A stretch of 64,000 nt of DNA, taken from the NCBI GenBank assembly GCA_043739185.1, contig JAYUEN010000155.1, forward strand, positions 1-64,000, written 5' to 3'. Below, in pieces: positions 15,725 through 23,174 of this stretch; the first letter of the stretch is position 1, and the number at the start of each line of letters is the position of its first letter. The notes below the pieces were generated by a model. It was not told the origin of the DNA. It saw only the letters and a list, made by a program, of their open reading frames with translations, and searched no databases. The stretch comes from Bdellovibrionales bacterium. Its GTDB lineage: Bacteria; Bdellovibrionota; Bdellovibrionia; Bdellovibrionales; JAMPXM01. A program made the translations under genes and the position numbers.

Positions 15725-15745
15725 TTCGTTCCTCGTTTAAATAAA

Positions 15746-15852
15746 CATCAGCAATTCAGGCGCCGGCAATCAGTAATCGGCCATCGGAATCTGAAAACAG
15801 AAACTGAGCCTGCCGACCGCGGACTGTTTACCGCTGCCCGAAATCCGCGGTC
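15746..15852. repeat. Degenerate 7-nt periodic repeat tract with a 9-bp inverted repeat in the gspE-gspF spacer
   Basis: cgccggc-aatcagt-aatcggc-catcgga-atctgaa-aacagaa-actgagc-ctgccga in 7-nt register; gaccgcgga (15815-15823) pairs with tccgcggtc (15844-15852). Confidence 0.55.
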
Positions 15853-15868
15853 TGAATTCCGCTGTATC

Positions 15869-21133: not shown

Positions 21134-21898
21134 ATGATGCGAAAAAAACAATGCTTTGTAGTCGCCGCGAACTGGAAGATGTTCAAAAGTCCTCTTGAGT
21201 CTGAAAAGTTTTTGAATGAATTTATGAGCTTTCAAAAAGACTTTTCAAATAAAGTTCAAAATTTATTTTTTGTTCCTGCGATGAATTTGGCCGCTGTAGC
21301 AACGATCCTCAAGGGAACACCCATTCTTTGGGGCGCGCAAAATATTCATTATGAAAGCGAAGGGGCCTTTACCGGCGAAAACTCGCCAAAAGTCCTGAAG
21401 GAGATGGGTGCACAGATTTGTTTGATCGGCCATAGCGAGCGAAGAACTTTGTTTTTTGAAACTGACGAACTTTGTGCAAAAAAAGTGAAAGCGGCACAGG
21501 GCCTTGGTCTGGCCCCTATGATTTGTGTTGGCGAAAGTCTTTCAGAGCGCAAATCCGGAAAGACTTTTCAGATCATCACTGAACAACTTCGAAACTCACT
21601 TAAACTTTTTGATCCGAAGAAAAAGTTTTATCTTGCCTATGAACCCGTGTGGGCAATTGGCACCGGACAAGTTGCAACCAGCAAAGAGGCGCAAGAGGCG
21701 CATCTCATTTTGAGAAATGAACTAAAGGACATTATGGGGGAGCAAGGTGCTGATGCAACTCCGATATTATATGGCGGCAGTGTTAAACCAGAAAATGCTC
21801 AAGAGCTTTCTGACCAAGATCAAATTGACGGATTTTTAATTGGCGGCGCCTCGCTTAAGATTGAAAGTTTAGTTCAAATTGCAAAAGTAAAAATTTAG
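21134..21898 (+). CDS. tpiA: Triosephosphate isomerase
   Basis: ANWKM, GHSERR, AYEPVWAIGTG, LYGGSV, GFLIGGASL. Confidence 0.97.
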   Translation: MMRKKQCFVVAANWKMFKSPLESEKFLNEFMSFQKDFSNKVQNLFFVPAMNLAAVATILKGTPILWGAQNIHYESEGAFTGENSPKVLKEMGAQICLIGHSERRTLFFETDELCAKKVKAAQGLGLAPMICVGESLSERKSGKTFQIITEQLRNSLKLFDPKKKFYLAYEPVWAIGTGQVATSKEAQEAHLILRNELKDIMGEQGADATPILYGGSVKPENAQELSDQDQIDGFLIGGASLKIESLVQIAKVKI

Positions 21899-21994
21899 AA
21901 AGCATCAGAAAACTTCGGGGTCAGGCAAACTGAATTCAGTCAGCGGAAGCCGATCCAGAATCAGCGTCTGGATCCGGCACCTCTAATTTCAATG

Positions 21995-22140
21995 TTATTT
22001 TGTCTTTAATCTGTAGATCATTGCACTATGCTTAGACTTGCTCTTTCGAGTTGATCTTTTATGTAGGCCTTAGTTTTGATCTGCTCACATTTTTTGTAGA
22101 GACTTAGAGCCAATTGATAACAACGAAAATTCTTAAGCAT
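21995..22140 (-). pseudogene. Internally deleted inverted copy of the four-helix-bundle gene (absent from the ORF track)
   Basis: Minus strand from ATG 22140 reads MLKNFRCYQLALSLYKKCEQIKTKAYIKDQLERASLSIVQ* (25/40 aa identical to 22217..22510). It is followed in another frame by AMIYRLKTK*, which resembles that protein's C-terminus ACLYKLTH*. Confidence 0.85.
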
Positions 22141-22314
22141 AAATACTCCCTTTTTTATTTTTGTTTGGGTCCCAAGTCTCACGACGACGCAAACAAAAAT
22201 AAAAAAGGGAGTATTTATGCTGTCAAATTTCAGATCTTATCAATTGGCTCTAAGTCTCTACAAAAAAGCGAGAGGTCAAAAGCTACCGTACTTTCTAAAA
22301 GATCAACTCGAAAG
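22043..22314. repeat. Long mosaic inverted repeat centred near 22178
   Basis: Perfect reverse-complement blocks 22136-22167/22190-22221 (32 bp), 22090-22120/22237-22267 (31 bp) and 22043-22061/22296-22314 (19 bp); collinear, with a 22-nt central spacer. Confidence 0.95.
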
Positions 22315-22510
22315 GGCCGCAAGCAGCGTCGTATTGAATTTGGCCGAAGGATCCGCAAGAACATCACCAAAAGAGAGAAAGAGATTCTATGTAATAGCAT
22401 TTGCAAGCCTTCGTGAAGTTCAAGCGCTAATAGATATGGAAGATTCGCTCATTGAGCTTCATCCACTGTCAGATCAATTGGGCGCTTGCCTATACAAGCT
22501 GACACACTGA
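22217..22510 (+). CDS. Four-helix-bundle protein (TIGR02436 / 23S rRNA IVS protein / Avd-like family)
   Basis: Family motifs F.SYQLA..LY, LKDQLERAASSVVLNLAEG, RFY.IA.ASLRE; SD GGGAG upstream. Confidence 0.9.
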   Translation: MLSNFRSYQLALSLYKKARGQKLPYFLKDQLERAASSVVLNLAEGSARTSPKERKRFYVIAFASLREVQALIDMEDSLIELHPLSDQLGACLYKLTH

Positions 22511-22943
22511 AGACAGACCACCGAAACTGCCAAACGGCTAACTGCCGCAGCTGCCGTTAAAACTGATCCCTGATTTGAAGCCATTTTGCGTAAAGTCATT
22601 AGTCAATTACGCTGATTCCTCAACAGAATCATGAACCTCTACCTGAGCCAAAAAGCGACACTTTAAAATTTGATCTTCGCGTTTTCAAAAAATAGCTTTC
22701 AACAAGCCTTTCATATAGAATAACTAAATAGCGAGCACAGTGGGCAAGGTGCTTGGCAAACAAGCTTTCTGTGAGTTTGTAGATTTCGTTTCAGGGCTAA
22801 GCGTGAACGAATCAGCAATTGATTCATTCTAAAAAAAATCTGTGGGGAAGACATTTGAATCGTCGCAAACAATAATTTGCGGGCGTGCGAAATCCGTATT
22901 CGTCGTCTGATAAAATTTTATGTTTGCGGCAATGGAGTGAACA

Positions 22944-23174
22944 ATGACCCCCGCTCTTAAGCTGTATTTTAGACGTTGTCATATATGCAATCAATTGACC
23001 CAAAATCTCTGTAAAGATGAGAGTGACCTCACTCAATGCGTGCACTGTCAAAAAGATTTTGTGCCTTTCTTGTTTTTCAACGATGAAAAAACACCGATTT
23101 TTAGTGATAATGAACCTCGACCCGAAATCAAAGAATGCTATTTGCCAATTCGCGGATTTACGAGTTATTGGTAG
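22944..23174 (+). CDS. Small zinc-ribbon protein
   Basis: CHIC...CVHC; SD GGAG upstream; 76 aa. Confidence 0.65.
   Translation: MTPALKLYFRRCHICNQLTQNLCKDESDLTQCVHCQKDFVPFLFFNDEKTPIFSDNEPRPEIKECYLPIRGFTSYW

What the first reader, a model, noticed from the sequence alone, without database searches (positions are those of the whole stretch)
21995..22510. Mirror-image four-helix-bundle locus: an intact gene facing an inverted, deleted copy of itself
Seen in the sequence: ATG 22217(+) and ATG 22140(-) are only 76 bp apart and carry identical leaders (32-bp perfect inverted repeat around a 22-nt spacer). The minus copy is collinear for 40 codons (25 aa identical), then jumps to a C-terminal remnant (AMIYRLKTK* versus ACLYKLTH*), consistent with an internal deletion at a GTGC junction. 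Established: TIGR02436-type four-helix bundles occur in 23S rRNA intervening sequences and are structurally related to the DGR accessory protein Avd; most have no known function. Inference: there is almost no room for a promoter between the arms, so read-through from tpiA would fold into a hairpin of more than 100 bp hiding the SD, the start codon and about 33 codons. This could be a built-in antisense silencer or RNase III substrate, or a self-contained palindromic mobile unit.
Basis: partly seen in the sequence, partly recalled or inferred. Interest (0 to 1): 0.85.

Follow-up and report, generated by a model that had tools for sequence, protein, structure and literature searches.

The report
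Transposon-borne twin-gene palindrome, one arm broken
This is a damaged copy of a small multi-copy cassette of two back-to-back related genes joined by a DNA palindrome; it likely spread by borrowing the ends of a resident ISL3 insertion sequence, has left about 120 short repeats across the genome, and the job of its proteins is untested.

Summary
The mirror image is real (32-bp perfect stem, 22-nt spacer, fold z = -16) and is not an assembly artefact. The left copy is not a broken copy of the right gene. It is a distinct paralog (A), intact at three other places in this genome, which here lost 148 bp recently. A and B are both under strong purifying selection (dN/dS 0.02-0.03). The unit (array - A - palindrome - B - array, 21899-22583) is absent at the same site in one congener, and head-to-head pairs occur in 37 of 79 related loci. 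The genome holds 122 repeat clusters that form a deletion series down to gene-less minis. Full-length members end in the terminal repeats of a resident ISL3 element; five twins in three lineages carry its 9-bp-type target duplication, but most twins and this copy show no such ends. Symmetric arms, flipped loops and no G-U bias point to DNA-level exchange rather than a purpose-built antisense RNA. The scan has reported twin cassettes and ISL3-borne four-helix cassettes before on other DNA; my ten literature searches found no description.

The parts
21899..22583 (.). Whole insertion downstream of tpiA: a damaged twin four-helix-bundle cassette that has lost both ISL3-type ends
   Evidence: In congener G001 the tpiA stop joins directly to the sequence that resumes at 22584; best match to the IS-type ends here is 10/23 and 8/23, background level
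21909..21970 (+). Left repeat array (L): C-N-G units at 6-8-nt period; begins with a few IS-derived bases
   Evidence: 72 hits genome-wide; column conservation; alignment to the ISL3 left end
21995..22024 (-). 3' remnant of paralog A (AMIYRLKTK*), out of frame after the deletion
22025..22140 (-). 5' part of paralog A (39 codons); 148-bp deletion junction with 2-nt microhomology at 22025-22026; the ORF stops at 22018
   Evidence: alignment with intact G000:C215 and C452; pN 0.011 vs pS 0.31-0.36
22136..22221 (.). Central palindrome holding both Shine-Dalgarno sites and both start codons: 32-bp arms around 22 nt here; 36-38-bp arms around a conserved 14-nt loop (22172-22185) in sister copies
22217..22510 (+). 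Intact paralog B, 97 aa, PF05635/TIGR02436 four-helix-bundle protein
   Evidence: 57.1 bits vs cut-off 33.8; 55 vs 24; model pLDDT 87.6 with four helices; TM up to 0.84 to 2GSC
22520..22567 (+). Right repeat array (R): C-N-G units; the repeat next to which recent ISL3 copies sit elsewhere in the genome
   Evidence: 122 hits genome-wide; columns; ISL3 neighbours
21134..21898 (+). tpiA (host gene upstream; context, not part of the cassette)
   Evidence: PF00121, E 3e-83
15725..15868 (-). Gene-less C-N-G repeat remnant of a related subfamily between gspE and gspF (gene names read from the ORF translations)
   Evidence: weak L hit; G001 has the short empty spacer; 7-nt C-N-G period

Best explanation
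The locus is a recently damaged and likely immobile copy of a multi-copy cassette (repeat array, gene A, palindrome, gene B, repeat array) that in this lineage was likely spread in trans by the transposase of a resident ISL3 element whose ends it carries. Shown: the insertion is absent in a congener; intact twins exist; both genes are under purifying selection; full-length sisters end in the ISL3 terminal repeats; some have 9-bp target duplications; a deletion series leads to gene-less minis. Inferred: the head-to-head layout is a DNA palindrome whose arms exchange by recombination or template switching, which would keep the arms perfect, flip the loop, homogenise codons 5-18 of A and B, and cause the deletions, including this one. 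Inferred: host read-through RNA would fold and hide the ribosome sites, so the genes would be translated only from transcripts that start inside the palindrome; the hairpin is a property of the layout, not a silencer built from a pseudogene. Inferred, weakest step: the basic four-helix proteins likely form Avd-like rings that bind the single-stranded C-N-G arrays, which would explain why the arrays stay conserved while the IS ends erode.
For: Empty site in G001; three more G000 repeat sites (gspE-gspF, C53, C262) lack the repeat in G001; two cassette sites of G002/G003 are empty in G000. Intact A at C215, C452, C29. dN/dS 0.02-0.03 for A and B. A-type genes form one 20-row clade (SH-aLRT 93, quick tree). 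65 L+R clusters with gaps from -11 to 717 nt. Complete ISL3 at G000:C405:9948-11435, PF01610 146 bits. Its ends match the cassette's outer arms: at least 16 of 23 letters in 14 of 65 (left) and 10 of 65 (right) clusters, background 0.03%. Six of seven ISL3 left ends pair with a right end by exactly 9 flanking bases. IR plus 9-bp duplication in L001 (9/9), L005, L006, C452 (8/9) of 26 twins, 0 of 150 random controls, and L223 (9/9). Outer ends erode continuously. 22 of 29 central stems (18-47 bp) have no mismatch; 2-7 two-sided changes vs 0-2 one-sided between copies; loop flipped relative to the genes in four within-genome comparisons; A-B synonymous distance 0.51 within vs 0.80 between cassettes in the first 20 codons, and 34-35/42 vs 25-29/42 letters in a same-genome control. 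C-N-G pairs at 6, 7, 12, 13, 14 nt enriched 4-7-fold in 103 flanks.
Against: Only 5 credible IR-plus-duplication cases among about 42 twins scanned (26; 16 non-duplicate ones). Three of the four G000 clusters that keep both IS ends by the 16/23 test, plus C398:52818, show no duplication (1-4 of 9). In the genomes of L005/L006 and L223 the ISL3 pieces found have other ends or none could be read. Ten of 26 twins have direct-repeat arrays at their ends and no IS ends, which suggests a second route. Some pairs are sisters in the tree (independent twinning or conversion), and the tree is a quick one on 102 columns. Loop flips could be assembly errors at palindromes. No RNA, binding or transposition data exist; no promoter-like site was found in the arms.
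Confidence: 0.6

Rival explanations
1. The cassette has its own mobility: A/B recognise the C-N-G arrays and the cassette enters or duplicates arrays by recombination (array-twin-array, leaving solo arrays), much as RAYT maintains REPINs. ISL3 ends would be a secondary capture because ISL3 likes to insert at the arrays.
For: Most twins lack IS ends. Twins have direct arrays (10 direct, 3 weak inverted of 26) and single genes inverted ones (10 inverted, 2 direct of 37); L174 has 84-98-nt near-identical direct arrays. Array C and G positions are 95-100% conserved beside fully random positions over 122 copies. Orthologous sites hold each species' own array type. Orientation bias 43 vs 10 with host genes, p 6e-6. 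Six of seven ISL3 left ends lie within 150 nt of an R array, background 3.7%.
Against: No catalytic motif or enzyme fold: best structural matches are 2GSC, 2RLD and Avd. No RVT_1 reverse transcriptase found in G000. In G000 even end-less copies keep IS-derived letters and truncation points are continuous, with no sharp array end.
Confidence: 0.22
2. The left arm is kept as an antisense silencer or RNase III substrate that shuts off gene B during read-through from tpiA.
For: Very stable fold; SD and start predicted fully paired in read-through RNA; many single-gene relatives also have an SD-covering stem; RNase III excises the related Coxiella IVS, whose ORF seems not to be made in vivo (PMC4990558, abstract and passages).
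Against: The left arm is a coding paralog under purifying selection, intact elsewhere; no G-U excess on either strand; 26 of 97 repeat clusters with genes on both sides lie between divergent genes, without read-through; other copies lose the centre or B instead.
Confidence: 0.1
3. The arrays and proteins are host-domesticated regulators (protein-bound elements at gene 3' ends), and mobility is only history.
For: Position-specific conservation of about 120 dispersed arrays and orientation bias; A and B copies kept at pS 0.3-0.4 with almost no amino-acid change.
Against: Patchy presence: a match in 80 of 251 genomes of the phylum sample, none found in congener G001 (90% complete); arrays differ between close species; many copies are broken.
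Confidence: 0.06
4. A one-off inverted duplication, or an assembly fold-back artefact.
For: No single contig of four runs spans the whole unit; palindromes often break assemblies.
Against: A and B differ by about 40% in protein; head-to-head pairs in 37 of 79 related loci; the junction is present in contigs of three runs.
Confidence: 0.02

Closest known systems
ISL3-mobilised MITE of Microcystis aeruginosa (PMC11448079, passages read); MITEs and transporter IS in general (PMC9330008, passages); 'mobile insertion cassette' is a recalled term
   Same: No own transposase; imperfect terminal repeats that match a resident ISL3; target duplication of the same length as that ISL3 makes; many intergenic copies.
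   Different: Carries two selected protein genes and repeat arrays; duplication is 9 bp, not 8; ends erode while the inner arrays stay; many relatives have no IS ends at all.
ORF-bearing 23S rRNA intervening sequences (S23p / PF05635; Coxiella, Leptospira; PMC4990558 abstract and passages)
   Same: Same protein family; long stem; ribosome site tied up in the stem; selfish, horizontally moving element.
   Different: Not in an rRNA gene; two genes head to head form the stem instead of one ORF in the loop; the genes are under purifying selection, whereas the Coxiella ORF is decaying.
DGR accessory protein Avd and XCC0516 (PDB 4DWL, 2GSC; 10.1101/2023.10.23.563531 and PMC10053308, passages)
   Same: Four-helix fold (TM 0.84 to 2GSC, 0.68 to Avd); net basic (K+R 14-17 vs D+E 10); Avd is a pentameric barrel over which RNA lies.
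   Different: No RVT_1 reverse transcriptase found in the genome, no adenine-specific variation; two paralogs A and B instead of one.
REP/REPIN-RAYT systems
   Same: About 100 lineage-specific intergenic repeats near gene ends, a few gene-bearing parents, IS elements inserting next to the repeats (IS110-REP targeting is mentioned in PMC3971601, passages).
   Different: The repeats flank four-helix genes, not a Y1 transposase; L and R are direct, periodic arrays rather than a hairpin doublet.

Membership tests
PF05635 / TIGR02436 four-helix-bundle proteins | HMM score over the curated cut-off | tested here: met
   57.1 vs 33.8 bits; 55 vs 24; intact A copies 57-59 bits
PF05635 / TIGR02436 four-helix-bundle proteins | Four-helix fold like XCC0516 | tested here: met
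   (model; Foldseek E 1e-3, TM up to 0.84)
PF05635 / TIGR02436 four-helix-bundle proteins | Pentameric ring | not tested
   no complex prediction run; a pass would follow from likeness to 2GSC
ISL3-derived non-autonomous element (MITE / cargo cassette) | Terminal repeats matching a resident ISL3 (family level) | tested here: met
   14 of 65 left and 10 of 65 right ends in G000, background 0.03%; ISL3 at C405
ISL3-derived non-autonomous element (MITE / cargo cassette) | Terminal repeats and target duplication in this copy | tested here: not met
   10/23 and 8/23, no duplication: the window copy is a remnant
ISL3-derived non-autonomous element (MITE / cargo cassette) | Target duplication of the cognate length (9 bp here) in sister copies | tested here: inconclusive
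   present in L001, L223 (9/9), L005, L006, C452 (8/9); absent in three other G000 copies with both ends and in most twins
ISL3-derived non-autonomous element (MITE / cargo cassette) | No transposase of its own; empty sites in relatives | tested here: met
ISL3-derived non-autonomous element (MITE / cargo cassette) | Movement in trans by the ISL3 transposase | not testable with these tools
   needs a transposition assay
23S rRNA intervening sequence | Lies within an rRNA gene | tested here: not met
   between tpiA and a small ORF; no Rfam match over a gathering score in 21800-23000
23S rRNA intervening sequence | Single ORF in the loop of a terminal stem | tested here: not met
   the two genes form the stem; flanks of twins are mostly direct repeats
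23S rRNA intervening sequence | Excised by RNase III | not testable with these tools
   no RNA run listed
Diversity-generating retroelement (Avd module) | Reverse transcriptase partner | tested here: not met
   PF00078 not found in G000, 97.65% complete, though repeats are partly unassembled
Diversity-generating retroelement (Avd module) | Adenine-specific variation in repeats | tested here: not met
   conserved and variable columns include both A and T
REPIN / RAYT | Repeats bracket a Y1 (RAYT) transposase gene | tested here: not met
   3 of 11 PF01797 genes have an array, on the upstream side only; the one at C386 has its own, different repeat on both sides
REPIN / RAYT | Two repeats in inverted orientation with conserved pairing | tested here: not met
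   the complementary stretch of L and R varies on one side only (read from column frequencies)

The most novel reading that the evidence does not exclude
Twin four-helix cassettes are a selfish system of their own kind: two specialised ring subunits (A and B) bind the cassette's C-N-G arrays, keep about 120 gene-less arrays under selection, and are tied to ISL3 in both directions (the cassette rides in ISL3 ends and ISL3 inserts at the arrays). That would give the 23S-IVS/Avd protein family a function and an origin for a class of bacterial short-period repeats.
Probability: 0.3. Interest if true: 0.8.

Novelty: new variant of a known kind. Interest (0 to 1): 0.55.

Why it matters
PF05635 proteins have been 'function unknown' since they were found in rRNA intervening sequences, and how those elements travel is open. 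This genome shows a whole life cycle in one place: intact twin cassettes, the IS whose ends and duplication length they share, half-deleted copies such as this one, and about 120 gene-less minis that keep a periodic C-N-G motif. It yields direct tests: array binding by A, B and A+B; trans-mobilisation by a named 1,488-bp ISL3; loop flipping in long reads. The locus itself is a broken copy, and the scan has met this kind of cassette several times before, which limits the surprise.

Tried and rejected
Self-copy of gene B: rejected. The 16-nt loop as a dispersed repeat: found only in four cassettes plus two chance hits, so it is not the 114-bp palindrome of note e1-2425975. Arrays as coding peptide: R looks codon-like (synonymous share 0.54 and 0.51 in two opposite frames), L does not, and only 3 of 117 single-strand clusters fall inside an ORF; read as C-N-G periodicity. 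DGR-type mutagenesis and retro-mobility: no RVT_1 match, no A bias. RAYT as mobiliser: not supported. The six identical contig ends were first suspected to be rRNA operon leaders; they are ISL3 left ends. Promoter/terminator scan: 1 promoter-like hit outside the cassette (1.4 expected), no terminator. Rfam: 24 hairpin look-alikes, all under their gathering scores. Sequencing runs: no RNA holder listed. Cognate ISL3 for L005/L006 and L223: not found with these queries. L044 and four single-gene hits of the IR-plus-duplication scan (9 hits in 71 units) lie inside repeat arrays or GC-rich DNA and were not counted. The careful tree did not finish; the quick tree was used. Four broken or edge twins were dropped before the direct/inverted count, and one more was too short. 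G001 was sampled for empty sites with 20 stretches only (about 170 kb of 3.0 Mb). No complex prediction and no large protein searches were run. Literature: ten full-text searches found no paper on twin four-helix cassettes or their link to ISL3; subscription journals are mostly not held and no supplements were read.

Full report
Observation. The sequence is as described. The two start codons lie 76 nt apart; 22136-22167 and 22190-22221 are exact reverse complements around 22 nt. The arms continue into the coding regions (82 nt at 89%) and the region folds at -159 kcal/mol against -70 +/- 5.5 for shuffles. The plus gene is a PF05635/TIGR02436 protein with a four-helix model whose best match is XCC0516, 2GSC. 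Contigs of runs X1, X2 and X4 cross the deletion junction. They come from one study, X1 may be the source, and no contig spans the whole unit, but an artefact is unlikely.

The left copy is a second gene. The genome holds intact head-to-head pairs at C215 and C29, and at C452 an intact left gene with a broken right one. The left gene (A) and right gene (B) are about 59% identical in protein. The window's left arm is A with 148 bp removed at a 2-nt microhomology. It differs from intact A by one nonsynonymous change against 7-8 synonymous ones, so the loss is recent. Both genes show dN/dS of 0.02-0.03 between G000 copies. In a quick tree of 106 proteins, 20 A-type rows from several genomes form one clade (SH-aLRT 93), while some pairs (L037, L086, L028/L033) are sisters. 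By my count, 37 of 79 related loci have a head-to-head second hit, and many others end at the palindrome. PF05635 matched 80 of 251 genomes of the phylum sample.

Boundaries and mobility. In congener G001, which has no match to the protein (90% complete), the tpiA stop joins directly to the sequence that resumes at 22584. G002 has a repeat remnant of its own style there, and G003 a remnant with the tail of A. Three more G000 repeat sites lack the repeat in G001, two cassette sites of G002/G003 are empty in G000, and three are occupied in both by different repeat styles. The two flanks of the unit are genome-wide repeats: 72 L hits and 122 R hits in 122 clusters, 65 of them L then R with gaps from -11 to 717 nt. 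That is a deletion series from intact twins to gene-less minis, many of which still carry the last codons of B. The clusters are intergenic and follow host gene direction (43 vs 10, p 6e-6).

The ISL3 link. Some copies extend beyond the arrays into 23-nt outer arms. The same arms start six identical contig ends and end other groups of contig ends. They are the terminal repeats of an ISL3 element, complete at C405:9948-11435. Six of seven left ends pair with a right end by exactly nine flanking bases, so this ISL3 makes 9-bp duplications. Of 65 L+R clusters, 14 keep the left end and 10 the right end at 16 of 23 letters or better (background 0.03%), and retained lengths are continuous. A scan for terminal repeats plus a 9-bp duplication hit L001 (9/9), L005, L006 and C452 (8/9) among 26 twins, none of 150 random controls, and L223 (9/9) among 16 further non-duplicate twins: three lineages. 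Against this: most twins show no IS ends, three G000 copies with both ends show no duplication, and no ISL3 with matching ends was found in the genomes of L005/L006 or L223. The window copy has lost both ends. Six of the seven ISL3 left ends lie within 150 nt of an R array (background 3.7%), so this IS also appears to target the arrays.

The palindrome. In 29 twins with an intact centre the stem is 18-47 bp, 22 of them without a mismatch, though the sequences differ between families. Between copies of the window's family, changes are two-sided (2-7) far more often than one-sided (0-2). The loop is reversed relative to the genes in four within-genome comparisons (L020/L021, L208/L217, L204/L215, L205/L230) and between C29 and L174/L226, but not in L025/L027, L005/L006 or the window's own family; assembly error is possible. 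A and B of one cassette share more synonymous letters near their starts than A and B of different cassettes (0.51 vs 0.80; same-genome control), while A- and B-specific residues persist further on. G-U and A-C appositions are about equal (157 vs 136). All this fits exchange between arms at the DNA level. Deletion of palindromes in bacteria is established knowledge (recalled). A read-through RNA is predicted to bury B's ribosome site completely, and a transcript starting at or after 22160 about half; no promoter-like site was found in the arms and no RNA run was listed.

The arrays. Across 122 copies, C and G positions are 95-100% conserved next to random positions, which neutral decay would not give. 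In 103 flanks from many genomes C-N-G is the most enriched gapped pair (1.6-fold, control 1.1), 54 of 103 flanks are individually significant, and pairs at 6, 7, 12, 13 and 14 nt are enriched 4-7-fold. Twins tend to have direct arrays (10 vs 3 of 26), single genes inverted ones (10 vs 2 of 37). Avd, the structural relative, is a basic pentameric barrel over which RNA lies (10.1101/2023.10.23.563531, passages). I infer that A/B rings bind the arrays; this is untested.

Verdict. It is a broken member of a twin-gene cassette that works like a cargo-bearing, ISL3-mobilised non-autonomous element (compare PMC11448079, passages) and carries the protein family of rRNA intervening sequences (PMC4990558, abstract and passages) without being one. 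It is not a DGR or a REPIN/RAYT member by the tests above. A second, ISL3-independent route remains open (0.22). The antisense-silencer reading gets 0.1. The scan noted twin cassettes (e1-1410508, read, after I had found the intact twins) and ISL3-borne four-helix cassettes (read after I had found the ISL3 ends) on other DNA; these notes are not independent support. New here are the A/B split with selection, loop flipping, the direct-versus-inverted rule, the 9-bp cognate IS in the same genome, and ISL3 insertion at the arrays. Ten literature searches found no description. Interest 0.55.

Noticed in passing
window 15725-15868 (-): Gene-less C-N-G repeat remnant (7-nt period) between gspE and gspF; G001 has the short empty spacer.
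   Followed up: partly
window about 22790-22860 and 22944-23174 (+): A non-coding block and a 76-aa Cys/His-rich ORF upstream of the PALP-ACT (threonine dehydratase-like) gene are conserved in G001-G003; no Pfam, NCBIfam or Rfam match. Possible leader or regulator.
   Followed up: no
G000:C386:67523-67726 and C465:1249: One Y1 transposase has its own palindromic repeat on both sides (a true RAYT/REP look); an ISL3 right end at C465 abuts the same repeat, so this ISL3 may target extragenic repeats in general.
   Followed up: no
G000 C31, C113, C156, C167, C224, C298 (two), C356: Eight very similar Y1 transposase genes (about 175 aa) with a shared upstream motif and no obvious flanking repeat.
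   Followed up: no
G000:C495:1-400 and L105 (G002:C252): The C495 cassette is almost identical at its start to a G002 cassette and has G002-style arrays: contamination of the bin or recent transfer.
   Followed up: no
L225 (G002:C300:485-1160): A B-B twin with an 80-bp stem and inverted flanks, unlike A-B twins; could be the product of exchange at the palindrome.
   Followed up: partly
G000 C168:5418-5679 and C145:5696-5958: Two minis share a 99% identical left flank but differ on the right, a sign of recombination between copies or of strain mixing.
   Followed up: no
L094, L096, L098, L099, L109: Single-gene relatives sit right beside what look like tRNA genes (recognised by eye, not run through a tRNA finder).
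   Followed up: no
G000 contig ends: At least a dozen groups of identical contig ends mark collapsed, recently active IS families whose interiors are mostly missing from the assembly.
   Followed up: partly
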